Virus record (IMG/VR): IMGVR_UViG_2721755676_000008
Coordinates: 1-40,917 of that record
Length of the DNA stretch: 40,917 nucleotides
Strand: one strand, 5' to 3'
From: a virus
Taxonomy: Duplodnaviria > Heunggongvirae > Uroviricota > Caudoviricetes
Under the pieces are notes generated by a model. It was given only the letters and a program-made list of their open reading frames with translations. It had not been told where the DNA came from and searched no databases. Positions 199 through 18,842 of this stretch are shown one piece after another. Every line of letters begins with the position of its first letter. Within the stretch, counting starts at the first letter, position 1. The position numbers and the translations under genes were made by a program.

Positions 199-241
199 AA
201 AAGAATGTCATCCCTTTTACTATTAATAATAAAGGGATGAC
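196..241 (-). terminator. Rho-independent terminator-like hairpin downstream of tfa
   Basis: Perfect inverted repeat gtcatccctttt / aaagggatgac (207-241) with a run of A on the plus strand (197-202), i.e. a U-run after the stem on the minus strand. Confidence 0.4.
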
Positions 242-340
242 ACACCCTCAAACCATTCTGTTTTTTACTTCTAATGAATTACATTTCGGCCAGCATTTAT
301 CTGACATTGTAAAAAGAGCACTCTATATAAAGTTTTTGTT

Positions 341-922: not shown

Positions 923-3900
923 TATGCAAGCCTCACAATATAGTTAAATGCGATGTTTTTGACGGTGTTTTCCGCGTTACCAGCAGCGTTAACGGTGATG
1001 GTGTGTCCATGTGAACCAATCGCAACGGAGTGCGTATGAGCACCAATACCGACAGTATGTGCATGTGCGCCTGCGCTTGCAGCAGTGCCGGACAGCGAGT
1101 GGGTATGAGCACCATCTGATGATGTCTTCCCTGCATTACGAGTCTGGCCACTACCGCTTGTTGTGCTCATAATCCCCGCGCTTAGATTTGAAATCGCGGT
1201 ATAACCATTAGGGAAAATGCTCGTGTTCGTGCCACCAAATGCACCGGAACTCTTGTGTTGGTGCGCACCGGCACTATTTGCGGTCCCGCTAATACTATGG
1301 GTATGCGCCCCGGTGTTATTCGTGGATTTGGTTCCGTAATCAAACGACGATGTGGTTTTCGTCCCCAAATCCGTACTGGATGCGCTGGCGCTGTGGGTGT
1401 GCGATTTAATGCCGTCCTGTTCCTGAGATAATACGGCCCGACCACTGGCGGGCTTGCCCTTAATCGTCCAGCCACGCATATCAGGGATCACGCCTGACGG
1501 ATAAGCAACTGCAAGTTTCGGGTATGCAGATTTGTCAAAAGTCTGCCCCTGCATCAGGGCATAGCCAGACGGAACGGTATCTGATGGCCACGGGATTGGT
1601 GCACCGACTGGATAAAACTCTGCAGGAGGATGAGCCGAGGTGTAAAGCTGCGCCCACGGCGACCAGTTTGCGTCGGTCGTATCCCGTCGTGAACGAATAA
1701 ATGCCGGAGCATGAGCACCGCTTGTACCACTCCAGCCGATGAGTAACTCACCTTCGCCAACGGCTGTCATCCCTTTCAGGTGAATGATATTTCCATACGC
1801 TGTTGGATATCCGTTGTTATACACCTCGTATAACTCAAGACCTGCTGCCCCCTGCGTATTGTCTGTCAGCGCGGTTATCCGACCTTTTGAAGCCAGATTA
1901 ACTGATGATACTGCTGTTCCACCTGACGGTAACGCCCCGATCTCTGATGCCGTTGGCTTATTTCTGGAGTTATAGTCCCTTCGCCAGCCAGGTGAATAAT
2001 CTGTTCCGTGATTAATATAGGTAAACTGGGCGTTAGTTGTTCCACCACCAGTGGAGGTGGTCGGTGTGGTAATGCGGATCGTCATCGCTGACTTTATCCC
2101 CATTACTTCAATGACAGCTCCGGCGAGATGAATATTACCGCAGTCAGTATCAGTAATGATTTTATTATTGCCATAAGACCAGGAACCCTTGCACATCCAG
2201 TAGGGATGGTTAAATGCTCCCTGAGAATCCAGCCACTCGATAAACTGTGCAGTCGTCCAGTTTCCTGTTGTTGTGCTTACTGACCCACCGAAGGCACGGC
2301 AGGCACCAATATTTTTCGTAAAGGTGTCTTTGCCAGGGATATCCGCACCGTTCTGATCTTTCTGCAGACGTTTCTCAGCATTGTCATTGGCTGCTTTTAC
2401 TGCCTTTGGTGTCGCGGCAAGCGTTTCAGACGTGCTGTTGGTCGCGCTGCTTAGCTGGATTATCCCTTTCTGTGCTGTCGTTGCATCCTGTGCGGTGTAT
2501 TTCCCGTTAGCCAGGTCATACGCGGCCTTAACGGCTTTTGGTGTTGCCGCCAGTGACTCGGAAGTGCTGTTAGTCGCACTACTGAGCTGTACTATCCCCT
2601 TTTTCGTCGTGCTCGCATCCTCAAGCGCCACGGCGGATGCAATATCCTCTGCCCGTTTTGCTGCTGTCTCGGCGCGCGTTGCTGCGGATTCTGCCGTACT
2701 TTTGCTCTGTGCTGCCGCTGCCGCACTGCCAGCAGCCTCTGTCGCCTTCGTGGATGCCGTCGTGGCGCTGCCCCTCGCTGCTGACGCCTGTCTGGTCGCC
2801 TCATCTTTTGAAGCAGACGCCGATGATGCCGATGACGCCGCCGAACTGGCGGACGATGCGGCAGCCGTTTTTGAGGATTCTGCGCTGGTTTCCGACGCTT
2901 TCGCGTTCGTTTCGGATGTCTTCGCTGCGGAAGCAGACCTCGCTGCTGCGCTGGCCTGTTCAGTGGCTTCGCCAGCCTTCGTTGTGGCTGTTGAAGCGGA
3001 TGATGCGGCGCTTTCTGCCGATTTTCCGGCGGCGGTGGCACTGACTGCTGCCTCCTCTGCCTTAATGGACGCCTCACGGGCCGATGATGCAGCTGTTGTC
3101 TCAGAGTCTGCCGCAGCTGAGGCGCTCTGTTCCGCTGCCGTTTCAGAAGACTTAGCATTCGTCTCGGACGTTTTTGCCGCCTTCACGGAATTTCCTGCCG
3201 CCGTTGCCGAGGAGGCTGCACTGCTGGCGCTTGTGGAGGCGTTCGTTTCTGATGATTTTGCCGCCTCTTTGGAGGCCGCCGCATCCCGGGCTGAAGTGGC
3301 GGCTTCTGACGCTTTCGTCGTCGCAGTGGATGCAGAAGTGGCTGCTGATTGTTGTGACGCTGCGGCATTCGTTTCTGACGTTTTCGCCGCACCGGCACTG
3401 GTGGCCGCCGCGCTTTTTGAGGACTCTGCAGCGGCAGCACTTTTTGATGCTTCAGTGGCCTTTGTTGATGCCGTTCCTGCGCTGGAAGACGCCTCCTGAG
3501 CCGACGTCGCGGCCTGTCCGGCTGACGTGCTGGCTGCACGCGCTGAGCCTGCAGCATCAGTCGCATGGGTTGCCGCCTCACTGGCAGATGTGCCGGCATC
3601 ACTGGCTGACTTCTTCGCGGCTGCCGTGTTCTGTGCCACCGCGGACGCGTTACGCGCCACCTCTTCCACCATCAGTTCAAAACGGCGCAGAGCCTCCGGA
3701 CGGGCATCATCCTCCGTCATGGCACCGAGAAAATCATTCAGCGTACCGGGTCGGGAATCTTCATACACGGTGATGGTCCCGGCATGTGACGGCGGGAATC
3801 CTTCCACCAACAGAATAACGCTGTACTGACCGTACTCAACGTCCATGCTGTAACGCCCGGCTTCATCCGGATTTTCTGAGGCCAGCGTGTTCACCACCAC

Positions 3901-4002
3901 CGTGGTGCTGTTACGTTTTGCTTTCAGCTGGATTGTGCAGTTCTGTACCGGTTTTCCTGTGCCGTCTTTCAGTACACCTGAAATCTTTACTGCCATATTC
4001 AC
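922..4002 (-). CDS. stf: Side tail fibre protein (Stf-like), Ala/Ser-rich repetitive shaft and His-rich C-terminal receptor-binding region
   Basis: 1026-aa ORF; long low-complexity repeats (KTSETNA..., AAxSA); duplicated ~30-aa motif GI(V/I)[11 protein letters not shown](S/T)[11 protein letters not shown] typical of phage tail-fibre repeats; C-terminal GAHTHS / GAHAH His-rich repeats; sits between lom and tfa as in lambda. Confidence 0.85.
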
Positions 4003-4016
4003 CCCACAAAAAAGCC

Positions 4017-4044
4017 CGCCTGAACCGGCGGGCTGTCATAACAC
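4017..4044 (-). terminator. Rho-independent terminator downstream of lom
   Basis: Hairpin agcccgcc-tgaacc-ggcgggct preceded on the plus strand by A6, giving stem plus U-run on the minus strand just after the lom stop. Confidence 0.6.
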
Positions 4045-4060
4045 TGTGTTACCTGGCTAA

Positions 4061-4660
4061 TCAGAACTTATAACCGACACCCACGATGAAACCGTCAGTG
4101 CGCCAGTCGCCACTGCCGGAGCCTTCATAAGCAATATCAATGGCCACGGATTCGGTCGGGTTAAACTGCACGCCAGCTCCCCACGCCAGAGACGTGTTGC
4201 TGTGGCGACCGTCATCACTTCCGGTCAGCACGTCGTGCGTTTTCCCCTTGTTGTCAGTTACGCGGAGATAATCCCCGGAGAAAGTCGACACACGGCTGTA
4301 AGCCACACCCGCCATCGCATACGCGCTGAACCATTCATTCACGCGCACAGACGGCCCCGCCATTACGCTGAACCAGCGGTTACGAACGGAATCTTCATGC
4401 CAGCGGGTATCGCTGTAATGGGTCAGCTGGCGATTCTTGTCTCCTGCATAGCTGAATGACGTCACCAGCCCCAGCGTATCCGTAAACTCATAACGGTATT
4501 TCACGTTAATCCCGTTCAGATCATCACTGCCGGGAACGTTGGTCCGGGCATGAAGATACCCCGCGCTCAGCGTGGACTGATGTTCAGACGCCCATGCAGG
4601 CGCACCGGATACGGCCAGACAAATGGCTGCGGACAAAATGGCTGCACAAACTTTACGCAT
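4061..4660 (-). CDS. lom: Lom-like outer-membrane beta-barrel protein (Ail/Lom/PagC family)
   Basis: 199-aa ORF with N-terminal signal peptide (MRKVCAAILSAAICLAVSGAPAWA), alternating beta-strand pattern and C-terminal ...VGYKF; located directly after J as in lambda. Confidence 0.85.
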   Translation of the reverse strand: MRKVCAAILSAAICLAVSGAPAWASEHQSTLSAGYLHARTNVPGSDDLNGINVKYRYEFTDTLGLVTSFSYAGDKNRQLTHYSDTRWHEDSVRNRWFSVMAGPSVRVNEWFSAYAMAGVAYSRVSTFSGDYLRVTDNKGKTHDVLTGSDDGRHSNTSLAWGAGVQFNPTESVAIDIAYEGSGSGDWRTDGFIVGVGYKF

Positions 4661-4684
4661 AATTACCTCTCGCTTTTCTGCAAT

Positions 4685-4708
4685 AAAAAAGGCGTCATTC
4701 CTGACGCC
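4685..4708 (-). terminator. Rho-independent terminator downstream of J
   Basis: Hairpin ggcgtca-ttcc-tgacgcc preceded by A6 on the plus strand (U-run on the minus strand) 23 bp after the J stop. Confidence 0.6.
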
Positions 4709-4730
4709 ATTTATTGGGGTTATAAATATT

Positions 4731-7700
4731 TCAACGAATACTGATGCCTGAAGCCGCTTTTTTGGTCACAATCACCGTACAGTCGGTGATATTACCTGCC
4801 CGCTGATTGCCTTTATGGAAAACCTTAAACTCCAGAGTGACGCTTCCCCTGCCACTCGGCATATCAATAACCGCACTGTAGCTACCGGGAATGGCCCCTT
4901 TAGTTTCTCTGGATGCGATTAATACACCGTTTTTGCGAACTTCAAAACCATAACCCGTGTATCTTGTACCTCCCGGGTTATTACCACTTCCCGGATCGCT
5001 ATACGCTATTCCGTTAAAGATAATGGGCGGAATAATGATTTGACGGTCAAAGTTATGATCATCGCTGATGGTGACTGTAACCGTCCCGTTTGGTGTTTCC
5101 GTATTACCCCACGTACCAGCCTGTTTCGGGAATGATTTGGATACAGCTTTAACGAAGTCACCTCTGACCTGAGTCGCCTCCAGCATGCCCTTAATCGTAC
5201 AGTTTTCATTTACCGTGACATTGTTGAGCGTCCCGGCGTTCGCATTCACACTGCCACTGATATCCGCATTTTTAGCGGTCAGCTTTCCGTCCGGTGTCAG
5301 GGAAAATGCCGGCGGATTTCCACCGCTGGTAATGGTGGGAGCCGTCAGGCGTTTCAGGAACACGTCATTCATGAATATCTGATCACCCTGACCAACAAAC
5401 ATCGGTTTTGTGTTGCCATTTGCAGGATTAATCATCGCAATCCTGTCCGCCGCCAGCAGCACCTGACTCTGCATGCCGTCAGGGGTGTTCTCAATACCGG
5501 CACCGATACCCGCAATATAAAGGCGTCCGTCCTGCATCTGCTGCAGCTTCACTGCCCACATGCTGTTCAGGTTATTATTTGTATCAACCTGAACCTTCTG
5601 TATCTGCTGGATCGCTGCACTCTGGTCTTCCAGTTTCTTATTGACGGTCTGTGTTATTTCATTGCTGACATCCGTTATGGACGTCCTGATTTCAGTCAGG
5701 TCAGGCGCAAGCTGACCGTTATCAATCTGCGTCCACAGCTCCTGAGCCAGATGGGTTTTCCCTATCTCGCCTTTGAAAAAATCCAGATAGCCTGATGCAT
5801 CATCACTCGGCTGACCGACAGCCTCCACGAATGCCGATTTGCCAACGGTGTTCACACTGCGAACGTAAAAATAATAATCATGGCCCGGTTTGATATTGAT
5901 ACTGGCGGCTATCCAGTACAGTGCCGTACCAAGATAACGCGCGCTGGTTTCAACCTGCCTGATATCCGCAATCCGTTTTTCCGAGAACCAGAACTCAAAC
6001 TGTACCGTCGGGTCATAAACCGCAAGATGCGGCGTGGCGGTTATCTGAAAATAGCCCGGCGTCAGCTCAATCCGCGACGGCGCTGCCGGTGCGGCAATCC
6101 GGAACGATACCGACGCCGGATCGCCCTGCTGCCCCCAGGCATTTGCCGCCCGGACTGTCAGCCTGTAGTTTCCCAACGCCAGTTGCGTGAAGCGGTATGT
6201 GGTTTCCGTCGTCCGGGCCGTGCTGACCAGCCGCTCACTGCCGTCATCCGCTGCCACGGTCAGGCGAAGCATAAAGCTCACGCCCTTCACCACCTTCGGC
6301 GTGTCCCAGCGGGCCAGTACCTGATACTCCCCGCTGTCTGCGGTGACTTCGGCAGTCAGGTGCTGCACCGCTGGCGGCGTGACACCATTCACCGTGCCGC
6401 TCTGGTCGCCGTCAAAGTGCGCCCCGTTATCCACGATGGCTTCTTTTTCCGGTACATGCTGCACGGCAGTGATGGCATACGTGCCGTCATCGTTCTCACG
6501 GATACTCACACAGCGGAACAGGCGCTGACGCAACGTCGGCAACTTCAGCCCCCACACGCTGTATCCGGCAACGCCGTCAGGAACCCGGTTCACTTTCACC
6601 TTAAGTCCGTCGGTGACGGACTGAACCTCCACGCTGAACGGATTACCACTTCCGTCAACCAGGCTTATCAGCGTGGTACCGGAGGATGGCAGCGTGATTT
6701 CACGGTCGAGCGTCAGCGTCCGGGTCTGGCTGTTCACCGCCAGCACGCGACCACCGGTGCTGATACCGGCATAGTCATCATCGCAGATTTCAATGACATC
6801 GCCCGGTACATGGCGAAGCCCTTCTGCGCCCACGCTGAAGTCCACGGTCTGCGTCTCCAGCAGTTCCGTTTTAATCAGCCACAGCCCGGCGCGGTGTGCC
6901 TGCCCCCGGCTGGTACAGCCAAAGGCATCCATCTTCGTGACATTACGACCATAACGGGCAATGGCCTGCGTATCTTCAACAAGCTCTGTCGCCGTCTCCC
7001 AGCCGTTGTTCGGGTCAATCCAGTTCACCTCAACGGCATTATGGCGGTCCTTCAGGGCGCTGAAACTGTAGCGGAACGGCGCGCCATCATCCGGCATCAC
7101 CACATTACTGCGGTTATAGGTCCACACCTTATCTGATGGTCGGTCCTGCACGAACGTCAGCGTCTGCCCGTTCCATACCGGCATACAGCGCATCGCCGAG
7201 CAGAAATCACTGAGCACATCCCACGCCTTACGCTGTGTGGTCAGGTACGCATTACAGGTAATGCGCGGCTCCGTGCCGCCAAAGCCGTCCGGCACCGACT
7301 GGTCGCAGTACTGGCCGATGACATACAGCGCCCATTTATCCACATCCGCCGCACCAAGACGTTTCCCCATGCCGTAGCGCGGATGGGTCAGCATATCCCA
7401 CAGACACCAGGCCATGTTGTTGCTATATGCTGGTTTTAACGTTCCGTCCCAGATACCGCTGTATTGTCGCGTCTGCGGGTTATAGTTCGACGGCACCTGC
7501 AGAATGCGCCCGCGAAGATGATAATTACGACTCACCTGCTGGCTACCGAACTGCTCCGAGTCCACCTGTACGCCGACCAGTGCCGTGTTCGGGTAGCACT
7601 GTTTCACATCGATGATTTCGGTGTATGACGACCAGAGCGTTTTGTTCTGCAGCTGGTCTGTGGTGCTGTCCGGCGTCATCCTGCGCATCCGGATATTAAA

Positions 7701-8228
7701 CGGGCGCGGCGGCAGGTTATCCACCACCACCGAGGCCAGATACTGCGAGGTGGTTTTGCCTTTAATGGTGATGTCTTTTTCCGTCACCCAGCCACCATTA
7801 CGCTGTATCTGAACCAGCAGGCGGACTTCCGACGGATTCCGGTCACCCTTTGAGGTGGTTTCCACCAGTGCCTGCACACCGAAGGTAAAGCGCAGACGGT
7901 CGATGTTTGCCGACGTGATGGTGCGGGTGATCGGCGTGTCATATTTCACTTCCGTACCCAGCACAGTCTCGGAGCCGGAGGATTCAAAACCTTCCGGCGG
8001 TGTCTGCTCCTGCTCACCTGCCCGGAACACCACCGTGACGCCGGAGATGTTGGTATTCCCCTCACTGTCCAGCACCGGCGTACTGTTCAGCAGCACGCTT
8101 TTTAATCCATCTACCGGACCTTCAACCGGCCCTTCGCTGATGGCATCGATCACACTCAGCAACTGCGTGGACTTCAGGTTGTCCTTCGCTTCGCGCGGGG
8201 TATGCCCCTTACTGCTTCCTTTACCCAT
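4731..8228 (-). CDS. J: Host specificity protein J (central tail fibre / tail tip)
   Basis: 1165-aa ORF, lambda gpJ-like throughout, in the expected position after tail assembly gene I. Confidence 0.9.
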
Positions 8229-8288
8229 TCCTCACGCTCCATAAATGACAAAACCGCCCGCAGGCGGTTTCACATAAAACATTTTGCA

Positions 8289-8936
8289 TCAGCGACCAAT
8301 CACCACAACCTGACCACCGTCCCCTTCGTCTGCCGTGCTGATCTCCTGAGAAACCACACGTGATCCCACGCGCATTTCACCGTACAGAACGGGCAGAACA
8401 TTGCCCTGGGCAACCATGTTATCCAGTGAGGAGAAATAGGTGTTCTGTTTGCCGTTATCCGTTGTCTGTGTACGGGGAGTTCTGGCTTTCGGTGCCAGCA
8501 TCTGCGCCACTCCGCCCAGGATCATACTGGCCCCTGCCGCATACATGCCCGATACAGCCGCGGCCCCCAGCCAGCCCACAGGGTTCCACCATGCCACCGC
8601 AATCAGCGCCGCCCCAAGCACCACCTGAAACACACCGCCACTTTTAGCTCCCGCCAGACGCGGCACGATGTGGATCACGGCACCATTTGCCAGCGGCTCA
8701 TTAAGACGGGCAGATAATTCATTTTCGCCTGCATCACGCCCGGCAATGCGCACCTGATACCAGCCCTCATTCAGTTTCTGACGAAACACCGGGAGCTGTG
8801 TGGCCAGTGCCCGGATGGCTTCAGCCCCCGTTTTCACACGAAGGTCGATACGGCGACCAAATCGTTGCAAATCCCCGTAAAGGCAGATGCGTGCCATGCC
8901 CGGTGACGCCAGAGGGAGTGTGTGCGTCGCTGCCAT
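8289..8936 (-). CDS. I: Tail assembly protein I
   Basis: 215-aa ORF, N-terminal MAATHTLPLASPGMARICLYGDLQRFG... and C-terminal ...GDGGQVVVIGR as in lambda gpI; 5' end overlaps the 3' end of K as in lambda. Confidence 0.85.
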   Translation of the reverse strand: MAATHTLPLASPGMARICLYGDLQRFGRRIDLRVKTGAEAIRALATQLPVFRQKLNEGWYQVRIAGRDAGENELSARLNEPLANGAVIHIVPRLAGAKSGGVFQVVLGAALIAVAWWNPVGWLGAAAVSGMYAAGASMILGGVAQMLAPKARTPRTQTTDNGKQNTYFSSLDNMVAQGNVLPVLYGEMRVGSRVVSQEISTADEGDGGQVVVIGR

Positions 8937-9577
8937 TTGTCGGTGTACCTCTCTCGTTTACTCAGTTGTTCAGGAATATGGTGCAGCAGCTCGCCGTCGC
9001 CACAGTAAATGGCGGCATGATTCGGCACCGATGAACCAAAACAGCACAGCAGCACGTCGCCAGGCTGCGCCTCTGTCAGTGGGACACGGTAAAAACCCGT
9101 TGCCTCCATATTGTCAAGATAGAGATTCTGACCGTGACGCCACCAGTCATCCCCGCGATGAAAATCCGGCATCTCAATCCCCGCCAGATGATAAGCATCC
9201 CGGAACAGCGTGTAACAGTCCGTCACCCCGTGCTCAAAGCGCCGCCCGGTGAGATGCGGCACACAGCGGAACTTATGAATCGTCCCCCGGCAGACCAGCC
9301 ACCACGGCAAATCACTCTGCACCTGCAGCCGCCGGTCGGCCTCACTCAGCCAGGGCAGACCACCGGGGTGGCTGTGGACCAGCGCCACAATCTCACCCTG
9401 CATTTCTGCCTGCAGCCAGTCCTCCGGCGACATACGGAAATACGCCTCCGGCTCACCGGAGATATTCACGCAGGGGAAATATCTTTCCCCCTCCGGCGTG
9501 CTTACCACGAAGCCGCACGACTCCGCTGGCGCACATCGCCGGGCGTGCGCCAGAATCGCTGATTCTGTCTGTGTCAT
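8834..9577 (-). CDS. K: Tail assembly protein K (NlpC/P60-like / JAB-type)
   Basis: 247-aa ORF lambda gpK-like (HSHP motif, conserved Cys/His), between L and I. Confidence 0.85.
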   Translation of the reverse strand: MTQTESAILAHARRCAPAESCGFVVSTPEGERYFPCVNISGEPEAYFRMSPEDWLQAEMQGEIVALVHSHPGGLPWLSEADRRLQVQSDLPWWLVCRGTIHKFRCVPHLTGRRFEHGVTDCYTLFRDAYHLAGIEMPDFHRGDDWWRHGQNLYLDNMEATGFYRVPLTEAQPGDVLLCCFGSSVPNHAAIYCGDGELLHHIPEQLSKRERYTDKWQRRTHSLWRHRAWHASAFTGICNDLVAVSTFV

Positions 9578-9582
9578 GGGAT

Positions 9583-10280
9583 TTACTGCGAAAGTTTGTT
9601 AATGGAAAGGAAGCCGCCAAAGTTGCCGACGTTATTGCGAAACTTACAGCCGCTCAGGCATTTGCTGCATTTATCCTTCGTGATATCGGACGTCGGCTGA
9701 TCATATTCATCCGCGACCGCCGGACCGTGATAACCGCACTCGTCACCGCGATAGGTCCAGGTGCAGGTGTTGGCCAGCATGATACGTCCCGGAAAAACGG
9801 CACCGTCCGTTTCCGTCGGCGTGGACAGTACAAAAGAGGCACTCACCGCGCTCAGTTCGCTGCACTGCTCGATGCGCCAGCGGCTAATCACCTCCTGCTC
9901 CGGATCGGCGTCACTGTTTCCGTTGACGAAGTTCACCGCATCCAGAAAACGGGCGTAAACCTTACGCCGGACCACCGTTCCGCCGACCAGACTCTGCAGG
10001 TCTTCCGCCATCCCGGTGACCATGCCGTGCAGGTTAGAAACCGTCAGTGTCGGACGGGCAGCACTGCCCTTGCCATTCAGTTCAAATCCCGTCCCCTGAA
10101 TGGGGTATGCCTGATACTGCCGCCCCTGCCAGGTAACCGGCTCACCTTTTCGTTCTGCTCATTACAGAAAAAATAACGTTCACCACCGACCTCTGTCAGA
10201 TCGATTTCCCAGAGCACCACCTGGGCTGACTGAGTGAGGCGTGTCGTCTCATGATGTGTTTCCTGTGGAATATCCTGCAT
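9583..10280 (-). pseudogene. L: Minor tail protein L split by a -1 frameshift
   Basis: The N-terminal L-like fragment (ORF 10077-10280, MQDIPQETH...FFCNEQNEK) and the C-terminal L-like fragment (ORF 9583-10023, MVTGMAEDLQSLVGG...) are in different frames; the frame switch maps to the T4 run at 10147-10150 (A4 on the coding strand); translated in the other frame the sequence continues GEPVTWQGRQYQ... as expected for gpL. Confidence 0.7.
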
Positions 10281-10289
10281 CAGAGCCTC

Positions 10290-10619
10290 CTATGCCACGA
10301 CCTGTTCAAAATCTGCCGTTATGGTTATCCACAGCGCCCCCACGCTTGCCGACCATTTACGACAAACCACCCTGATCGGCTTCCAGTCATAAGGTGGCGT
10401 CCACTGAAATGCGCGGACGCCACCGTGCCGTTCCAGAAAGGCTTTTAAAGATGGGTGTTCACATTTACGAACACGTATCGTCACGCTGTAAATCGACAAC
10501 TGGTTATTCAGTCCCGCCGCACGACGCTGTTCATAACCATCGCCCAGCTTCACTGTCACCACTTTCGGCTCTGATACCACATTCATATCCGGGCGCACTT
10601 TCCAGTGAAACGTCTCCAT
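10290..10619 (-). CDS. M: Minor tail protein M
   Basis: 109-aa ORF between H and L; size, position and sequence as lambda gpM. Confidence 0.85.
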   Translation of the reverse strand: METFHWKVRPDMNVVSEPKVVTVKLGDGYEQRRAAGLNNQLSIYSVTIRVRKCEHPSLKAFLERHGGVRAFQWTPPYDWKPIRVVCRKWSASVGALWITITADFEQVVA

Positions 10620-13600
10620 TACCGATATGCTCCACTTAACCGACCACCATCACGGGCCTGCTGTTGCATAAAGTCCGCTGCCGCTTTTTTCCCAAGGTCA
10701 TAAACCACCTTCAGGGCAGCCGGACCTATCTGCCCGTTCGTGCCATCGTTATTGATCTCAATGTTGTACTGCGGGGCAAACATCGCCATACCTGAACCAC
10801 CAATATCCGCCACAACCCCCAGCTTACCGTCAGCACCACGACGCAGTGGCAGAATGGCTTCAGGCCCAGCTTCCCCCATCACACCTGCACCTTTTGCAAA
10901 AGCAAAAAACGTCGGACGGTTAACCACCGTGCCACTGTAGCGACTCAAATCAGCAGACTGATAAACACCACCATCAGCATTGGGCGTCACACTGGCAGTT
11001 GCTGCACTCCCCCAGCCAAACGCCGAACCAATCCCCTTAACTGCCTGCATCATGGACATCTGAGCCATGATTTTTGCCAGATCAGAAAGGAGCGAGGCGG
11101 TAAAAGATTTGAAGTTCAGTTTTCCGGTGGTACAGAATGTTGCCAGTGCATTACCTGCACTATTAAATGCCGCTGTAAGCATCTGCTCCGCAGTGCCTGC
11201 CGCATTATCCGCATCTGCCGTGAAATTCTGAAACGCCCGCATGGCACCGTTTTTCCAGTTACCCTGAGCAATTTCAAGCTGTTGCCAGTAACGGCGATTC
11301 TCATTCAGTTGCCTGTTCAGGCTCTCCGTCAGCGCCTGCTCGGCCTTTCTGTAGTCATCCGTGTTATATGTCCCTTTCTGCTCACTATCCCGCCTCAACT
11401 GCTCCAGCTGTTGCTGGTATTTCTGGCGAAGACTCAGTTGTACCTGATATCGCTGCCGCTGCTGATCACCCATACCCACCGTGGCGATATCCAGGTCATG
11501 TTGCTGATGCTGAGAGCGCTCTTCTTCAGCCAGTTGACTGGTCAGCTGAATTGTTTTTTTCTTCAGATCGTTGAGTGCCGTCTGTTTCTGAAGCTCCTGC
11601 TGTTTTACATCCAACAGCGTCAGTGCCTGAATCAGTTCATCTTTACGGGCCAGCACACTCTTTTCATCTGCCGTCAGTTTTTTCCCGTCCAGATCGCTGA
11701 TGCGCTGCTGCAGAGCCAGAAGCTGTTTATGCGCTTCTGTCATCCTGTCAGTGGCAATGCCAGCTGACTGTCTTGCAGCAGCAATCTGTCCTTCCACCTG
11801 TGCCTGTTGCTGACTGTACTGCAGCAATAACCGGGTGGCCTCATCATTACGGGTTTCGCGTGTTTTTTTCTTACCGGATGCCAGGGCTTTCTCGTAACGT
11901 TCATTTTCACGTTGTATCGCCGCATCCCTGACAGCCTGGTCGGCGTACTGCATGGCATTAATACGCGCAATTTCACGCTGATGTCGTGCTGCTTCCGTTT
12001 CATTCATCCGGTTCAGTGCAGCATTTTCAGCATTACGTCGTTTCTGTTGCTCCTGATAATTCCGCTCTGCCTGCTCTTTTGCATCCTGCAAATCCTTCTG
12101 GCGTTTTTTCTCCTGAAGATCGTTAAGACGCTGCTGATCGTATTCAACCTGAGAAGATGATGCCGTCCAGGGGAGTCTTTTCGCCCGCGACACTTTCTCC
12201 TGTAAAGTGGCAATCTGTTCATCCAGCGAGTCTTCACGACCAATATTCATGGCCGCATCCCAGAAACGACTCCATAAATCAGACAGATACTTCAGCGTAC
12301 TGCCAAGCGCATTGAGGTTATTATCAATATCCGCAGTACGCCGACCGGTTTCCTCTGCCAGTGCAGACATGGCTATCCGTGCAGCATCACTGGACCGTCC
12401 CTGCTCCCCAAGGACGCGTATCTGCTCAAGCTGAGTGGCAGTAAGAAAATGCAGCTCATTGTCCAGAGCCTTCGCGGCATTTACAGGATCATCCTTCAGC
12501 CGCTTAAACTGATTTATGGTATCGCTGACCGACTGGCCAACCGATCGCTCCATCTGTGCGGCAGCTCTCGCCACCATACCGATATCGTTTCCACGAAATG
12601 CACCACTACCCACCACCTGAGCCAGCGCACCGGCTGCAGCATGTTGCGTGATACCATTCCCGGAAATAGCACGACTGAGCGTCCACAGCTGCCCGGCAGT
12701 GACTCCGGCATAATGCCCCGTCAGCGACAGCTGGCGGTTAAATTCTTCCCCCTCCTTCTGACCGTCATACCAGGCTTTACCCAGACCATAGACAGCCGCG
12801 GCAATACCGCCAATAACCCCGCCAAGCATCATGCCTTTCGGTGACATCAGTGTGTCTATCCACCCGGCACGGTTAGCCAGCGTTATCCCGGATCCCCTCA
12901 GCGCACCTAAATTGCCGCGGGCCAGTTCACCTATCAGAACGCCTATCTCCTGGCGGGCCGCTGCACTTTTCAGACCCAGCGAATGCGTGGCTTTTCCTGC
13001 CTGCTCCATTTTGCGGATATACACTTCTGCAGCACTGCTTACCCCCAGTTGGGCAGCCTTAGCACGAAGCAACTCAGAAGAAGAAAGATTCTGGCGGGTT
13101 GCCTGCTCTTTAAGCTGACGGATAAACGCCACTTTCTGTCGGGTAGCCTCTTCCTCAGCCTGTGTAAGAACACGGGTTTTCGCAGTAACCTCAGAAATCA
13201 GCGCCAGATAATCCTGCTGACCAATCCCGCCACTGTTTCTGGCCTGTCGGATCTGCTGCTGAATACGCTGTAATTCCTGCAGCCCCGCACTGGCCTGTTT
13301 CACACTGTCAATCTGACGATAAAACGCAGCAGCCGCTTTATCCTGAGCCTCCGCCAGAGCCATGGCCTGCGCCTGTTCCTCGCGCATTTTCTGGCTCAGC
13401 GCCTCCATGCGCTGGCGGGTTTTCTCCACCTCGCGGGCCATGCGTTCATGAGCCTGTGCGTTCTTCTCCACCGTCTGCGCATGGACGGATGCGGCTGTTG
13501 CAGCCGAAGAAGCCGCCTGCGTTGTCTGCCGGGCGGCCTGAGTCTGACGCTCCATAAAACGCTGCATACGGGCAGAAGACCGTTCTGCATCGCTGGCTGC

Positions 13601-13723
13601 ACCATTCAGAAGGTTTTTGATACGGGGGATTTCATTTTTAAACTCTGCCGCATCAATCCCCAAATCAATGACCAGGTTGGCTATCTGGTCCATAACGCAC
13701 ACCTCCGGAAATACCTTCCCCAA
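10619..13723 (-). CDS. H: Tail tape measure protein H
   Basis: 1034-aa ORF, coiled-coil-rich (Q/E/R/A-rich) with a glycine-rich hydrophobic segment, located between G-T and M; the called 5' end overlaps T so the true start may be internal. Confidence 0.85.
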   Translation of the reverse strand: MGKVFPEVCVMDQIANLVIDLGIDAAEFKNEIPRIKNLLNGAASDAERSSARMQRFMERQTQAARQTTQAASSAATAASVHAQTVEKNAQAHERMAREVEKTRQRMEALSQKMREEQAQAMALAEAQDKAAAAFYRQIDSVKQASAGLQELQRIQQQIRQARNSGGIGQQDYLALISEVTAKTRVLTQAEEEATRQKVAFIRQLKEQATRQNLSSSELLRAKAAQLGVSSAAEVYIRKMEQAGKATHSLGLKSAAARQEIGVLIGELARGNLGALRGSGITLANRAGWIDTLMSPKGMMLGGVIGGIAAAVYGLGKAWYDGQKEGEEFNRQLSLTGHYAGVTAGQLWTLSRAISGNGITQHAAAGALAQVVGSGAFRGNDIGMVARAAAQMERSVGQSVSDTINQFKRLKDDPVNAAKALDNELHFLTATQLEQIRVLGEQGRSSDAARIAMSALAEETGRRTADIDNNLNALGSTLKYLSDLWSRFWDAAMNIGREDSLDEQIATLQEKVSRAKRLPWTASSSQVEYDQQRLNDLQEKKRQKDLQDAKEQAERNYQEQQKRRNAENAALNRMNETEAARHQREIARINAMQYADQAVRDAAIQRENERYEKALASGKKKTRETRNDEATRLLLQYSQQQAQVEGQIAAARQSAGIATDRMTEAHKQLLALQQRISDLDGKKLTADEKSVLARKDELIQALTLLDVKQQELQKQTALNDLKKKTIQLTSQLAEEERSQHQQHDLDIATVGMGDQQRQRYQVQLSLRQKYQQQLEQLRRDSEQKGTYNTDDYRKAEQALTESLNRQLNENRRYWQQLEIAQGNWKNGAMRAFQNFTADADNAAGTAEQMLTAAFNSAGNALATFCTTGKLNFKSFTASLLSDLAKIMAQMSMMQAVKGIGSAFGWGSAATASVTPNADGGVYQSADLSRYSGTVVNRPTFFAFAKGAGVMGEAGPEAILPLRRGADGKLGVVADIGGSGMAMFAPQYNIEINNDGTNGQIGPAALKVVYDLGKKAAADFMQQQARDGGRLSGAYR

Positions 13724-13994
13724 GATGCATCAGTTCTTCGTCCGTTCGCTCCGGTATCCCGTTCTCTTCCGGTAAAAGGCTGAAATCAGCCACCGCAGCA
13801 TCACTGCTGCCGGACACCATTCTCACGATCAATGCCTTCAGCGAGGCAAACTGCGCATCCATCCACACATCACTGAAGCTCTGCATCCGGAAATAATCGC
13901 CCCACTCACCAAGCTCAGTGGCCGACATTTCCGACAGCATCCGCCGCCAGTCTGCCCGCCGGAACTCCCGGGCAAGCCGCATGACAAACTGCAT
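13665..13994 (-). CDS. T: Tail assembly chaperone T segment (expected to be expressed as a G-T fusion by -1 frameshifting)
   Basis: 109-aa ORF in the -1 frame relative to G and open upstream into the 3' end of G; arrangement identical to lambda G/G-T. Confidence 0.6.
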   Translation of the reverse strand: MQFVMRLAREFRRADWRRMLSEMSATELGEWGDYFRMQSFSDVWMDAQFASLKALIVRMVSGSSDAAVADFSLLPEENGIPERTDEELMHLGEGISGGVRYGPDSQPGH

Positions 13995-14002
13995 TTCCCG
14001 CG

Positions 14003-14392
14003 TCAGGACTTTTCCGGCGTCAGCACCTCATGCTCCAAATCCCCGGCATTCTCAATGGCTCCCATACCGCTCAGCGACAGAACCATCTCCGCCCCCGCTC
14101 CCAGGGCATCATACGACCATGTTGTAATAACGGATGCGCAAAGCGTCTCAACATCCTGAGACTGTTCCGCATTCCACAGTGAGCGGGAAACCAGCCAGGC
14201 ATTGATATCCATCCCCATCCGCAGAAAAGCAATCTGTCGTTCAGCCTCCGGCAGTTCTCCCTCTTCGGCATCAAACTTTGCCGTTCGCTGCTGAACAAAC
14301 GCCAGATATTCAATTCTCTGCAGCCCGGACAGCTCACTGAGCACCACGGACTGCTTTTCATAATTAAACGTGCCCTGTTTCAGAAACATCAT
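14003..14392 (-). CDS. G: Tail assembly chaperone G
   Basis: ORF 14003-14431; likely start at ATGATG (14392/14389) preceded by GGAGA; product begins MMFLKQGTF... resembling lambda gpG. Confidence 0.75.
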   Translation of the reverse strand: MMFLKQGTFNYEKQSVVLSELSGLQRIEYLAFVQQRTAKFDAEEGELPEAERQIAFLRMGMDINAWLVSRSLWNAEQSQDVETLCASVITTWSYDALGAGAEMVLSLSGMGAIENAGDLEHEVLTPEKS

Positions 14393-14405
14393 GTTCTCCA
14401 CCTGC

Positions 14406-14429
14406 AAAAAAGCCCCGGATAACCGGGGC
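14406..14429 (-). terminator. Terminator/attenuator hairpin downstream of the major tail gene V
   Basis: gccccgg-ataa-ccggggc hairpin with adjacent A-run on the plus strand (U-run on the minus strand), between the V stop and the G start. Confidence 0.5.
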
Positions 14430-14449
14430 AAATGATGAGTATCGTCCTG

Positions 14450-15199
14450 TTAACCTGCGGCGCTGACAGCCACCGCAGCCACTGCCACAAAATCGCCGTC
14501 AGAAGTCATGCCCACAATGCTGACACTGCCCTGCTTCACGCCTTTCACCGTGGCCACAAGCCCGTTCAGGGTCACCGTGGCAGTCTGTGGATCTGTCGAA
14601 TGCACACTGATCGCTTTGTCACTGGCTCCGTCAGGTTTTACTGTAAAGGTCAGCGTGGTGGTTGCTCCCACTTTTACACTGGCAGATGCCGGTGCCACCG
14701 TCAGCCCGGTAACGCTCACTGTTTCAGTGCCTTCCTCTGCCAGATACGGACGCCCCACACCGCTGATTTTCACTGTGCGGGTCATCACGTCTTTTGAGGC
14801 AATGGTTTTACCCAGTGAGCTCAGCCAGCCACGGAAAACATCAACAGTGCCGTTGGGATATTTGATACGAAACGCGCAGACTTCACCGGAGTCGAACAAC
14901 TGAACCAGTTTTTTCTGCCCGCTGTCACCCGGACGCCAGGCCAGCGTCGCCGAAGTATCACCGACGGATTTCTGCCCCTGGGTTGTCGTTTTCCAGTCTG
15001 CATCTTCATCATCGAGATAAGAGTCATCTTCTGCATCAGCGGTCATTTCGCCAGGTTGCAGATCCTTCACCATCGCAAGACGCAGCCAGTCAGTGTCCGA
15101 TAAAGGGTTCGCAAACGCATCGCCCTTGCCGGTGTACATCCAGAACGTCGTTCCCGCACCTTTCGTTTTTGCCAGTGGATTTGGTGTGGTCATTGCCAC
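14450..15199 (-). CDS. V: Major tail protein V (with C-terminal Ig-like domain)
   Basis: 249-aa ORF, lambda gpV-like, positioned between U and G. Confidence 0.85.
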   Translation of the reverse strand: MAMTTPNPLAKTKGAGTTFWMYTGKGDAFANPLSDTDWLRLAMVKDLQPGEMTADAEDDSYLDDEDADWKTTTQGQKSVGDTSATLAWRPGDSGQKKLVQLFDSGEVCAFRIKYPNGTVDVFRGWLSSLGKTIASKDVMTRTVKISGVGRPYLAEEGTETVSVTGLTVAPASASVKVGATTTLTFTVKPDGASDKAISVHSTDPQTATVTLNGLVATVKGVKQGSVSIVGMTSDGDFVAVAAVAVSAAG

Positions 15200-15204
15200 C
15201 TCCT

Positions 15205-15618
15205 TTAATTCGTGTACGTGATCTGGTACGTGATTTCCGCCATCGCCCAGGTGGCCATCTCATTATCACGTTGATAGTTAAAACCGAGAGGGATCAGGGT
15301 GTCGATGAGTCCGGAAAGTGCCGGTATATCATTCAGGGCCGGGAAAATGGTGCTCTCCATCCACATATCCAGCTCTGAATCCGGTGCCTGTGCCCGGATG
15401 AAGACAGCAATATGCAGAACAGCCTGCCAGTCATCTTCATCCGTCATTTTTCCGGTGTACTGAGCATCACTCAGCCACACCGCCACGGCAGGCAGTTCCT
15501 GCGCATCAATAAATGCCGGAAGCCCGTCAAAAAACGTGGCGCTGTCTCCACACTGTTCCCGAAGGCGTGCCAGTACGGCCTGGCGGATTTGTGTATGTCG
15601 GTTCATCGGGTCAGCCAT
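15205..15618 (-). CDS. U: Tail terminator protein U
   Basis: 137-aa ORF between Z and V, lambda gpU-like. Confidence 0.8.
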   Translation of the reverse strand: MADPMNRHTQIRQAVLARLREQCGDSATFFDGLPAFIDAQELPAVAVWLSDAQYTGKMTDEDDWQAVLHIAVFIRAQAPDSELDMWMESTIFPALNDIPALSGLIDTLIPLGFNYQRDNEMATWAMAEITYQITYTN

Positions 15619-16181
15619 AACCTCAGTTGTTGTTTCAGTGCATACCCCAGCTGTTTCGGCATTTCCGCAGCAATGATGCGGTCGCGGGCATCTTCAAATG
15701 CCTGTGTCAGCGGTCCGGAAAGCGGGATTTTCACCACATCAATGGGGTAACGATTTTTGCCATCAATACGCCGCATCACATGCCAGCGACCATTCGCCAG
15801 TTGCTGAATAAACGCATCCCGGAAAAGATATTTACCCACCTTCAGCACACTGCCACGGTACTGCAGTTTTCCACCACGCCGGGCCAGTCTGACCCGGGCT
15901 GTCCCCAGCTTAATGGCGGGCAGATTGCCCCGGTTAACGCGGATCCTGGCCGTCATTTTTCCTGACGGACTGGCTTTAAACACCCGGACACGCTGACGTA
16001 CCAGTTTCAGGGGGATCCCTTTCACCTGGTTATCTCCCGCAACGGTATTCCCGGCAACCTGCCGGGTGGCAACCGAGACCGCTTTCTGTGCCACACGGTT
16101 TATCGCCCATGCGCTGGCCTGTGGCACCATACGGGTATCAAGGCTGTTCAGATTGCGGATGGCATTCTCAAGCCCCTTCAT
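15603..16181 (-). CDS. Z: Tail completion protein Z
   Basis: 192-aa ORF, lambda gpZ-like, overlapping the U start. Confidence 0.8.
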   Translation of the reverse strand: MKGLENAIRNLNSLDTRMVPQASAWAINRVAQKAVSVATRQVAGNTVAGDNQVKGIPLKLVRQRVRVFKASPSGKMTARIRVNRGNLPAIKLGTARVRLARRGGKLQYRGSVLKVGKYLFRDAFIQQLANGRWHVMRRIDGKNRYPIDVVKIPLSGPLTQAFEDARDRIIAAEMPKQLGYALKQQLRLWLTR

Positions 16182-16192
16182 CCCACACCTCT

Positions 16193-16468
16193 TTACTCAA
16201 TAAAGATCATTGGCTTACCGTTAAAGCGTTCATGCCGTGTGACCGTCCATTGTTGTCCGTCATAAACAACGCGATCCCCGCGCCGTGGGCGGTATCCCGA
16301 AGAAAACACCACCAGAGAGACCGCAGGTCCGGACAGGGCATTCAGCTCTGCCAGTGTTTCTCCCGGGATCACGGTCATATCGACATCATTAATCGAGGCT
16401 GTCTTTCCCATCTTTCTGACCGTGATAGCATCCATACGCGCTGCCAGCCGGGAAAAGGGATCAGACAT
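16193..16468 (-). CDS. Head-tail attachment protein (FII-like)
   Basis: 91-aa ORF in the lambda FII position, immediately upstream of Z; assignment by position and size. Confidence 0.5.
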   Translation of the reverse strand: MSDPFSRLAARMDAITVRKMGKTASINDVDMTVIPGETLAELNALSGPAVSLVVFSSGYRPRRGDRVVYDGQQWTVTRHERFNGKPMIFIE

Positions 16469-16784
16469 TGAGTTTTACCGGCACTTCTTCTGCACTGGTT
16501 CCGGCATCTGCCCAGACAACCCCGACCAGCGGATCAGAGCCGCTGTTAGTCAGCTGAACTTTTCCGGACTTCAGATAAACCTTCTTACCCGTTTTCATGT
16601 CATCCGTTTTCAGCTTAGGCAGCATAAACACACCTTCGGTCATACCGTCGCCTGTTTCACCTTGTGGAATATCGGTCAGCGCCACCGCAAAAACATCACC
16701 CACCTGCACCAGATCTCCGCTGCTGATGGCTGCACTGGCAACAATCGCCACCGTTTTTCCTTCTTCTACAAAATTCTTTGCCAT
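16461..16784 (-). CDS. Small head-associated protein (DUF2190-like; FI/D position)
   Basis: ORF 16461-16829; probable start at ATG 16784 (MAKNFVEEGK...) preceded by GGAGA; lies between the capsid gene and the FII-like gene. Confidence 0.45.
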   Translation of the reverse strand: MAKNFVEEGKTVAIVASAAISSGDLVQVGDVFAVALTDIPQGETGDGMTEGVFMLPKLKTDDMKTGKKVYLKSGKVQLTNSGSDPLVGVVWADAGTSAEEVPVKLNV

Positions 16785-16826
16785 AACTGTCTCCACACAG
16801 CCCCGTTCAGGGGCTGATTTCAGGTA

Positions 16827-16847
16827 CAAAAAAAGCCCTTACGGGCC
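16827..16847 (-). terminator. Terminator-like hairpin just downstream of the capsid gene
   Basis: agccc-ttac-gggc hairpin with A8 on the plus strand (U-run on the minus strand) directly after the capsid stop; a second small hairpin ccccgttcagggg at 16801-16813. Confidence 0.45.
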
Positions 16848-16870
16848 ATCAGAGTTGTTGTCTGCGATGT

Positions 16871-18829
16871 TTACGCCGTACATTTCACCAGACCGCGGTG
16901 ATCAACTGGCGCGACACCGGCGTCAATACGCACTTTCGTTGTCACGCCATCCACACTGAAGCCCTCCATCTGATCAATATATGGCGTATCCACACCGTTG
17001 AGATAAGCCACTTCAATCGTATCGGAGCCTTTTGACGCAGCCAGGTAGAAGGTGGTCTGGCTGTTATCATCAAGACGAGGCTCTGCAATAACGGTCGCAA
17101 AATCTTTCACCGGGTTAATAATACCGGCGTTAATGTCAGCCCCCTTGACACTTGAGGAGCGAATGACCTGGTTAGCAACAGACTCCATCGCCGTCGGTAC
17201 CAGTACGAACGCAGGACGAATATTCAGATGACGCTCCCCCTCTTTCTGAACACGCATCAACTGGCGGGCTTTATCCAGCGATGCCACGTCCATTGCAGCG
17301 CCCTCCAGTACGTTTGCATGTTTCGCTTTATCGAACAGACTTACATTATCTGTGGAGATTTTCGGGTTAGACGTCAGAATGGCATAAACCAGATCGGCAA
17401 TAGTGGATTTCGCCGCACGGCCCAGCTTCATCGGGACATCGGTCAGCATATTCAGATCATCATTGATAATGGCCTGACGGGTGATACTGAACAGCTCGCC
17501 ATAGGTCGCCAGTGCAATAGTGGCCTGTTTATCTCCGGTGGTGACGTATTTATATTCCGCCCCTTCACGCACCTGACGCAGAGCACTGAAGCCCCCCATA
17601 CCCACGCGATGGGTAATTTTAAAATCAGACAACTGACCTTTCCGCGTCCACTGTTCATAGGTTTCAGGGGCATCCTCCCAGCCCTGCAGAATGGCTTTGT
17701 TCGCAACATCCAGCAGAATATTACCGAAGTCAGACGTACTGTGTGTGAACGCCGCACCGACCATCTGCATCGGGTTATAACCGGAAACCCCAATACCCCG
17801 TTCAGTCAGTGACATACGGGCATATTCACGCAGGGTCATCCCGTTGTAGACATTATCACGCTCGGTTTTTTCAAATCCGGCACGCGCCATCAGCGCCTGG
17901 CGGATCCCGTCCCCCACAAAATTACCGTTACCGGCATAAATATGAGCCGGGGTATTTTTATTGGATGGCGTGGACTCGCGCCCCATCTCGTTCAACAGCT
18001 TTTCGCGGGCCTGCTCCAGCGAACATTCAGGATCGGCAAGACACTGAGCCTGCAGCGTCTGATAACGCCCGCCAAACATGGCAAACAGATCATTAATACC
18101 GTTTACACGCGCTTTTTGCTCTGCCAGTACCTGCGCACGGATACTGTTTTCATCCACCACGGGTGCTGCTGCCTGCACTGGCGTCCGGGAGGCTGCAGGT
18201 TCATTATCCTGTACGCGTGGAGCACTGTTGCGTGGCGGAGTAATCATGTTTCGAATGGATTCCGGCATCTTTTTAAATTCCTCTGTACGTTTTGACTGAA
18301 TACATGCCATTGCCTTAACGGCTGGCGTCACCTGATCAGCAAATCCATGTGCCAGACATTCGGCACCGGACATCCAGGTCTCATCCGCCAGCATGGCAGC
18401 AATTTCATCGGTAGTTTTCCCGGTTTTCTGTGCATAAGCGGGTAACAGAACCGCCTCAACCTTATCGAGCAGGTCGGCATAGGTGCGCATGTCCTCCGCA
18501 TCACCGCCCGTAAAGCCAAATGGTTTATGAATCATCATGAAGGTGTTTTCCGGCATAATGACCGGGTTTCCCACCATCGCAATGACCGACGCCATTGACG
18601 CCGCCACACCGTCGACATAAACGGTAATGGACGCACCATGTGTTTTCAGCGCATTAAAAATGGCGATGCCTTCAAAGACATCGCCACCCGGTGAATTGAT
18701 ATGGAGATTAATGTGGGTGATATCGCCCAGTGCATTCAGATCACTGATAAACTGCTTCGCTGTAACACCCCAGAAACCAATCTCGTCATAAATATAAATA
18801 TCCGCGTCACTCTGGTGACCAGCCTGCAT
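16871..18829 (-). CDS. Prohead protease (ClpP/S49-like) fused to an HK97-fold major capsid protein
   Basis: ORF 16871-19090 (739 aa) but the probable start is ATG 18829 just after the portal stop; N-terminal part has protease-like motifs (INSPGGDV, HKPFG), C-terminal ~400 aa looks like a major capsid protein. Confidence 0.75.
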   Translation of the reverse strand: MQAGHQSDADIYIYDEIGFWGVTAKQFISDLNALGDITHINLHINSPGGDVFEGIAIFNALKTHGASITVYVDGVAASMASVIAMVGNPVIMPENTFMMIHKPFGFTGGDAEDMRTYADLLDKVEAVLLPAYAQKTGKTTDEIAAMLADETWMSGAECLAHGFADQVTPAVKAMACIQSKRTEEFKKMPESIRNMITPPRNSAPRVQDNEPAASRTPVQAAAPVVDENSIRAQVLAEQKARVNGINDLFAMFGGRYQTLQAQCLADPECSLEQAREKLLNEMGRESTPSNKNTPAHIYAGNGNFVGDGIRQALMARAGFEKTERDNVYNGMTLREYARMSLTERGIGVSGYNPMQMVGAAFTHSTSDFGNILLDVANKAILQGWEDAPETYEQWTRKGQLSDFKITHRVGMGGFSALRQVREGAEYKYVTTGDKQATIALATYGELFSITRQAIINDDLNMLTDVPMKLGRAAKSTIADLVYAILTSNPKISTDNVSLFDKAKHANVLEGAAMDVASLDKARQLMRVQKEGERHLNIRPAFVLVPTAMESVANQVIRSSSVKGADINAGIINPVKDFATVIAEPRLDDNSQTTFYLAASKGSDTIEVAYLNGVDTPYIDQMEGFSVDGVTTKVRIDAGVAPVDHRGLVKCTA

Positions 18830-18842
18830 CCTGAACCAGGAA

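What the first reader, a model, noticed from the sequence alone, without database searches (positions are those of the whole stretch)
9583..10280. Minor tail gene L is interrupted by a -1 frameshift in a homopolymer run
The N-terminal and C-terminal L-like segments are in different frames. The switch falls at an A4 run on the coding strand (plus-strand T4 at 10147-10150), after which the other frame reads GEPVTWQGRQYQ... as expected for gpL. Either the prophage is tail-assembly defective (cryptic despite an otherwise intact gene set), or this is a sequencing/assembly indel, or less likely a slippage-prone site.
Basis: seen in the sequence. Interest (0 to 1): 0.5.

Follow-up and report, generated by a model that had tools for sequence, protein, structure and literature searches.

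The report
One-base deletion breaks prophage tail gene L
A lambda-like prophage has lost one A from a run of five in its essential tail-tip gene L; the change is seen only in this assembly, so it is either a very recent knockout or a sequencing error, and is ordinary either way.

Summary
Gene L (minus strand, 10280..9583) reads 45 native codons and then leaves the frame at GAACG-AAAA-GGTGAG (plus-strand T4 at 10147-10150). It stops after 67 aa. The rest of L continues in the -1 frame.

Adding one A restores a 232-aa protein that aligns end to end with phage lambda gpL (PDB 8IYK, E 2.6e-148).

The lesion is private to this assembly:
- Seven independent assemblies of the same prophage all carry A5. 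Four of them have no other difference from the window, over 5.3 to 14.2 kb.
- A contig identical to window 9887..32662 differs only at this base.
- The A4 sequence is exact in 0 complete E. coli records, against 823 for A5. It is also absent from IMG/VR, metagenome contigs and GTDB representative genomes.
- The same 67-aa product occurs in six unrelated contigs. Four of those also have neighbouring genes frameshifted.

No conserved recoding signal exists here. The site is only an A_AAG tetramer, no notable structure lies downstream, and no homologue shares it.

Sequence alone cannot separate a homopolymer under-call (about 50%) from a real, very recent inactivating mutation (about 45%). If the deletion is real, the prophage makes heads without tails unless another prophage supplies L. 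Interest is low.

The parts
10286..10291 (-). Shine-Dalgarno-like AGGAGG, 5 nt upstream of the L start codon; it overlaps the stop codon of M
   Evidence: Read directly from the sequence
10146..10280 (-). L codons 1-45 in the native frame (MQDIPQ...NEQNEK)
   Evidence: identical to the N-terminus of intact relatives
10147..10150 (-). A4 run on the coding strand (T4 on the plus strand). This is the site of the missing base; relatives and lambda have A5
10077..10145 (-). Out-of-frame tail of the truncated product (VSRLPGRGGSIRHTPFRGRDLN) with its TGA stop at 10077-10079
9583..10146 (-). Remainder of L (Gly46 to Gln232 plus stop) in the -1 frame. It includes the four cysteines (lambda numbering 173, 182, 205, 212) that hold the iron-sulfur cluster
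   Evidence: PMC10721106 for the cysteines
10290..10619 (-). Gene M (109 aa, PF05939), intact, immediately upstream of L
8834..9577 (-). Gene K (247 aa, JAB/NlpC-P60), intact. Its ATG lies 5 nt after the L stop and has no obvious ribosome-binding site, so it is probably translationally coupled to L (inference)

Best explanation
The break is a non-programmed loss of one A from an A5 run at codons 44-46 of an otherwise perfect lambda-type L gene, and it is found only in this assembly. My marginally preferred origin is a homopolymer under-call in the sequencing or assembly consensus. In that case the real prophage has A5, L is intact, and the prophage is a complete, probably inducible lambdoid phage. 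As written, the sequence would give a 67-aa peptide (45 native residues plus 22 out-of-frame ones) and no gpL. What is shown: the position and nature of the lesion, that it is private, and that no recoding signal is present. What is inferred: that it arose in the data and not in the cell.
For: (1) It is a one-base length change in a homopolymer, which is the classic residual error of long-read, 454 and Ion Torrent consensus (established knowledge).
(2) It is the only difference between the window and L012 over 14,227 bases, L017 over 12,798, L154 over 6,074 and L157 over 5,307. L144, from the same contig as L157, is 100% identical over 10560..32662. Identity apart from one homopolymer base is what resequencing the same element would give.
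(3) All seven near-identical assemblies shown have A5 and a 232-aa L, or a partial L in one frame.
(4) The exact A4 81-mer occurs in 0 complete E. coli records, against 823 for the A5 82-mer. A 42-nt and a degenerate 22-nt A4 pattern give 0 hits in GTDB representatives.
(5) Of the six other contigs that encode the identical 67-aa product, four (L002-L005) also have frameshifts in J, I, K, H, V, U, capsid or lom. So this A-run is demonstrably miscalled, or decayed, in low-accuracy assemblies.
Against: The rest of the window is clean. The other 146 homopolymer runs of 5 or more bases in 1..32662 show no difference from the identical relatives, and there are no gaps against L151 over 30045..40917. 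So this is not a generally error-ridden assembly, and a short-read assembly would rarely miscall A5. Two other carriers of A4 (L006 from Logan and L007, a k141-named contig from ENA) show no other frameshift in their short contigs, so real A4 alleles probably exist. A near-identical relative (L010) carries a different private one-base indel at window position 97. Such indels therefore do occur among these assemblies at a frequency comparable to SNPs. I have no read data and could not identify the source assembly.
Confidence: 0.5

Rival explanations
1. The deletion is a genuine, very recent loss-of-function mutation. Replication slippage removed one A from the A5 run in this lysogen's lineage. 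Translation ends after 67 aa, so no gpL trimer is made. gpL supplies the hub HDI domain and the iron-sulfur domain of the lambda tail tip. The J-I-L-K initiator therefore cannot form, and induction yields filled heads without tails. K, whose start follows the L stop by 5 nt, may also be under-translated. The defect could be complemented in trans, or repaired by recombination, by the L gene of a co-resident lambdoid prophage.
For: The window is otherwise free of indels against its closest relatives, which argues for an accurate assembly. A4 is the sole frameshift in two clean short contigs with different 3' L haplotypes (L006, L007), so the run does mutate in nature. Relatives show real decay of the same module, with a V-J fusion in L139 and a capsid-to-fibre deletion in L143. 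gpL is a structural trimer of the tip, so a 67-aa product cannot substitute for it (PMC10721106). E. coli genomes that carry L have a median of 2 copies and up to 11, so rescue in trans is plausible.
Against: No substitution accompanies the indel over 32.6 kb, although substitutions normally outnumber indels. No independent assembly or Logan contig with this haplotype shows A4. The change type is exactly that of a consensus error.
Confidence: 0.45
2. The A4 allele is real and is decoded by -1 ribosomal slippage. tRNA-Lys on AAG re-pairs with AAA at C_GAA_AAG_G, so the G at 10146 is read twice. The ribosome then continues GGU GAG and produces the exact wild-type E-K-G-E junction and full-length gpL at a low level.
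For: A_AAG is the most shift-prone tetramer in E. coli (PMC4066793). The slip would restore the wild-type protein with no altered residue. The prophage's own G/T recoding window contains only G_GAA_AAG as a candidate slip site, which is the same GAA_AAG pair of codons. Only three gpL copies are needed per tail (PMC10721106).
Against: The allele is not conserved. It is exact in 0 complete E. coli records (823 for A5) and absent from IMG/VR and metagenome contigs, so it is not a selected recoding site. The heptamer is not X_XXY_YYZ. Tetramers without a stimulator shift at about 0.15%, against a 0.11% background. The downstream RNA folds no better than shuffled sequence (z -0.87 and -0.59). A run of four or five A is too short for transcriptional slippage or phase variation (established knowledge).
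Confidence: 0.03

Closest known systems
Bacteriophage lambda tail tip protein gpL (Pfam PF05100; PDB 8IYK/8IYL/8K35/8XCG/9E7M)
   Same: With one A restored, the protein has 232 aa, the same length as lambda gpL, and aligns over residues 1-232 with E 2.6e-148. The cluster cysteines and the M-L-K-I-J gene order are the same.
   Different: In the window the reading frame is broken after codon 45. About a dozen substitutions lie in the N-terminal third. The flanking tape-measure gene is longer (1024 aa).
Frameshifted tail genes of laboratory and cryptic lambdoid prophages, such as the stf frameshift of lambda PaPa
   Same: A single-base frameshift in a tail gene of an otherwise complete lambdoid genome. 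PMC10721106 notes the stf frameshift.
   Different: stf is dispensable and its lesion is fixed and well documented. L is essential for tail assembly, and this lesion is seen in one assembly only.
Homopolymer indel errors of long-read and other flow-based or pore-based consensus sequences
   Same: A one-base deletion inside a run of identical bases, absent from independent assemblies of the same element. The same miscall is seen in contigs with many other broken genes.
   Different: The window shows no second such error among the other 146 runs of 5 or more bases that could be compared.
Programmed -1 frameshift of the tail chaperone genes G/GT (lambda G_GGA_AAG; here G_GAA_AAG)
   Same: Same direction of shift and the same GAA_AAG codons. 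Both lie in the tail gene block of the same phage.
   Different: The G/T site is conserved in all relatives examined and has an overlapping -1 ORF by design. The L site is unique to this sequence and arises from a deletion.

Membership tests
Lambda gpL / Pfam PF05100 Phage_tail_L | Full-length match to the family profile above the curated cut-off | tested here: met
   The repaired protein scores 331.6 bits (cut-off 25) over profile positions 1-206. The 146-aa C-terminal ORF scores 227 bits. The 67-aa product has no hit.
Lambda gpL / Pfam PF05100 Phage_tail_L | End-to-end similarity to the solved lambda gpL, including the four cysteines that hold the iron-sulfur cluster | tested here: met
   It aligns to 8iyk_L over residues 1-232 with no gaps, and C173, C182, C205 and C212 are conserved (cysteines named in PMC10721106).
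Lambda gpL / Pfam PF05100 Phage_tail_L | Position in the tail-tip block H-M-L-K-I-J | tested here: met
   ORF order in the window and gene calls with Pfam families in near-identical loci.
Lambda gpL / Pfam PF05100 Phage_tail_L | One uninterrupted reading frame, meaning a functional gene as written | tested here: not met
   The frame changes after codon 45 and a stop follows at codon 68.
Programmed -1 ribosomal frameshift site | The two-frame arrangement is conserved in homologues | tested here: not met
   Exact A4 matches: 0 in complete E. coli records, IMG/VR, metagenome contigs and GTDB representatives. A5 is the norm, with 823 exact records and at least 120 contigs in each of two collections.
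Programmed -1 ribosomal frameshift site | Slippery heptamer X_XXY_YYZ | tested here: not met
   The site is C_GAA_AAG. Only the A_AAG tetramer fits (motif rules from PMC4066793).
Programmed -1 ribosomal frameshift site | Stimulatory RNA structure a few bases downstream | tested here: not met
   The 50-nt and 90-nt downstream stretches fold no better than shuffles (z -0.59 and -0.87).
Phase-variable (contingency) homopolymer tract | A long tract, typically 7 or more bases, with both lengths common in the population | tested here: not met
   The tract is 4 or 5 bases, and A4 is essentially absent from populations. The length threshold comes from general knowledge.
Sequencing or assembly homopolymer indel | A single-base length change inside a homopolymer, absent from independent assemblies of the same sequence | tested here: met
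Sequencing or assembly homopolymer indel | Not supported by the raw reads, or by an accurate second technology | not testable with these tools
   No reads are available, and the source assembly could not be identified.

The most novel reading that the evidence does not exclude
The A4 allele is real and leaky. -1 slippage of tRNA-Lys at C_GAA_AAG_G re-reads one base and makes wild-type gpL. These are the same GAA_AAG codons that the phage appears to use for its own G/GT recoding. Enough three-copy tail hubs would then form for a low titre of infectious phage, which would be a natural case of translational correction of an indel in an essential virion gene.
Probability: 0.03. Interest if true: 0.35.

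Novelty: already known. Interest (0 to 1): 0.1.

Why it matters
The main value is for annotation and quality control. This prophage should not be scored as cryptic or tail-defective on the strength of one homopolymer base that no other copy of the element shares. If the deletion is real, it is a very young example of prophage decay. It would predict tail-less heads on induction and dependence on co-resident lambdoid prophages for L, which bears on whether the element can still spread. It opens no new mechanistic question.

Tried and rejected
1. I tried to find the source assembly and failed.
   - Complete E. coli genomes match at best 97.5% over 25 kb.
   - The exact 67-aa product returned six contigs, none of them the window.
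   - The A4 pattern was absent from GTDB representatives, IMG/VR and metagenome contigs.
   - Sequencing technology and read support therefore stay unknown.

2. I counted alignment gaps, including non-3n gaps and homopolymer gaps, to rate the accuracy of the other A4 contigs. This did not discriminate, because divergent but intact relatives also show many compensated gaps. I replaced it with a tblastn frame count per gene.

3. I considered an inherited pseudogene shared by a lineage and rejected it, because all near-identical prophages have A5.

4. I considered a single origin for all A4 records. This is unlikely, because the allele sits on at least four different 3' L haplotypes.

5. I considered restart at the internal ATG 10023, which would give a 146-aa fragment. 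I rejected it as functional because it lacks residues 1-87 of the HDI domain and has no visible ribosome-binding site.

6. I treated the antisense ORF at 9571..10176 as the usual shadow of a coding region and did not follow it.

Full report
**What is in the sequence.** The window carries a lambda-like prophage whose late genes lie on the minus strand. The order is tape measure H (10619..13693), M (10290..10619), L, K (8834..9577), I (8289..8936) and J (4731..8228). L begins at ATG 10280, five bases after an AGGAGG.
- Frame 1 gives MQDIPQETHHETTRLTQSAQVVLWEIDLTEVGGERYFFCNEQNEK. It then reads 22 unrelated residues and stops at TGA 10077-10079, for 67 aa in all.
- The frame displaced by -1 reads GEPVTWQGRQYQAYPIQ...GGFLSINKLSQ* down to 9583.
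- The switch lies at GAACG-AAAA-GGTGAG.

**Identity of the gene.** Inserting one A gives a 232-aa protein.
- It matches Pfam PF05100 (Phage_tail_L) over the whole profile (E 1.8e-99).
- It aligns with lambda gpL of the solved tail tip (8IYK chain L) over residues 1-232 without a gap (E 2.6e-148). The junction NEQNEKGEPVTWQGRQYQ and the four cluster cysteines are conserved.
- Lambda itself reads GAGCAGAACGAAAAAGGTGAGCC at this place, which is A5.
- In lambda, gpL is a trimer. [quoted passage not shown]
- A 67-aa product with 45 native residues cannot do this job.

**How widespread the lesion is.** It is private to this assembly.
- Looking up contigs that encode exactly the window's J or H protein returned assemblies of the same prophage.
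- L012 (Logan ERR3506479) is identical to window 1..14227, and L017 (GCA_025429905.1) to window 1430..14227, except for the one missing base.
- L008 and L014 have that gap plus one substitution. L010 has that gap, one substitution and a second one-base indel at position 97.
- L154 and L157 have only that gap.
- L144 and L157 come from one contig of GCA_029448175.1. That contig is otherwise identical to window 9887..32662.
- L151 matches 30045..40917 at 99.4% with no gap.
- The L deletion is therefore the only indel that distinguishes the window from its nearest relatives. The other 146 homopolymer runs of 5 or more bases in 1..32662 show no difference from them.
- Thirteen other structural-module genes checked read as single frames.

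**Population counts.**
- Complete E. coli genomes (5,426): the A4 81-mer is exact in no record, and the best matches all carry a one-base gap. The repaired 82-mer is exact in 823 records.
- GTDB representative genomes: a 42-base and a degenerate 22-base A4 pattern both give 0 hits.

**Other records with the same break.** The exact 67-aa product is encoded on six other contigs. None is the window; they are 91-98% identical to it.
- Four of them (L002-L005, all NCBI GCA assemblies) also have J, I, K, H, V, U, capsid or lom split over two or three frames. They are low-accuracy or decayed sequences.
- Two short contigs have no other frameshift. These are L006 (Logan SRR16251405) and L007 (an ENA k141 contig).
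- The 3' halves of these L genes belong to at least four haplotypes, so the A4 state has arisen, or been miscalled, several times.

**Is it a recoding site?** No evidence supports that.
- The arrangement is not conserved.
- The motif is C_GAA_AAG, which is not an X_XXY_YYZ heptamer.
- A_AAG is the best -1 tetramer in E. coli. Even so, tetramers without a stimulator shift at about 0.15% against a 0.11% background, and A_AAG reaches 5.6% only with a strong pseudoknot (PMC4066793).
- The 50 and 90 bases downstream fold no better than shuffled sequence (z -0.59 and -0.87).
- One curiosity keeps a small probability alive. A -1 slip of tRNA-Lys from AAG to AAA would restore exactly the wild-type E-K-G-E junction. 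The prophage's own G/GT overlap (0 frame GTG CTG ACG CCG GAA AAG TCC TGA; -1 frame open only from 14027) offers only G_GAA_AAG as a slip site, which is the same pair of codons.

**Mechanism and verdict.**
- Shown: a single-base deletion in an A5 run truncates L as written, is unique to this assembly, and is not a conserved signal.
- Not decidable from sequence: whether the base is missing from the DNA or only from the consensus.
- For an artefact: the type of change, perfect identity to other assemblies apart from this base, and the recurrence of the same miscall in poor assemblies.
- For a real mutation: the cleanliness of the rest of the window, the two clean A4 contigs, and the private one-base indel in L010, which shows that such differences occur among these assemblies.
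- My estimates are about 50% artefact, 45% real recent knockout and 3% leaky slippage.

**If the deletion is real.** Established lambda tail genetics (J, then I, L and K, then H and M; this is from my own knowledge, not tested here) predicts filled heads without tails.
- A polar loss of K is possible. Its ATG follows the L stop by 5 bases and has no ribosome-binding site, but this is inference.
- Rescue by other lambdoid prophages is plausible, since E. coli genomes that carry L have a median of two copies.

**Comparison with known things and novelty.** The gene is an ordinary member of the gpL family with a broken frame. The lesion belongs to the well-known classes of homopolymer frameshift pseudogenes and homopolymer consensus errors. 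Nothing here is new in kind, and interest is low.

Noticed in passing
window 14003-14027 (minus strand), slip candidate at 14009-14015: This is the natural G/GT tail-chaperone overlap. The T frame is -1 to G and is open only over the last eight G codons (GTG CTG ACG CCG GAA AAG TCC TGA). The only slippery candidate is therefore G_GAA_AAG, not lambda's G_GGA_AAG. The junction CCGGAAAAGTC(C/A)TGA is shared by 69 related loci.
   Followed up: partly
window 1-40917; L008 14029-15498; L148 1-10000: The window looks like a whole lambdoid prophage. It runs from the tail-fibre assembly gene (341-922) to an integrase whose start codon is the last base of the window (39694-40917). In relatives the prophage sits between dinI/prfC on one side and the yjjG-rimI-holD side on the other.
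   Followed up: partly
L157 / L144 (GCA_029448175.1 contig DAOCUP010000002.1), contig end = window about 9887: This contig, which is otherwise identical to the window, ends inside L, and L158 ends just before the A-run. Assemblies seem to break here, presumably because L is repeated among several lambdoid prophages in one genome. E. coli genomes that carry L have a median of 2 copies and up to 11.
   Followed up: partly
L139 17469-21332; L143 13765-17155: Two relatives with the same terminase show large real deletions in the tail module. One has a 1287-aa ORF that fuses the tail-tube gene to J, removing G, T, H, M, L, K and I. In the other, a truncated capsid gene runs straight into a tail-fibre gene.
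   Followed up: no
L002 1-20204 (GCA_040188945.1): One of the other A4 carriers is a heavily IS-ridden remnant. It has IS1-type and IS3-family transposase genes on both sides, the head genes are missing, and J, I and lom are split. This looks like Shigella-style prophage decay, so in this record the A4 may be a genuine old pseudogene.
   Followed up: no
window 97 and 13627: These are the only other differences among the near-identical prophage copies. L010 has a one-base indel at position 97, which is intergenic and not in a long run. L008 and L014 share a G/A substitution at 13627, inside the start of H and the end of T.
   Followed up: no
window 25213-26265 and 30850-31536 (minus strand): The prophage carries two DNA methyltransferase genes: an N6_N4_Mtase of 350 aa and a Dam-family protein. 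It also has a Lom/Ail outer-membrane protein gene at 4061-4660. These assignments come from gene calls on identical or near-identical loci.
   Followed up: no
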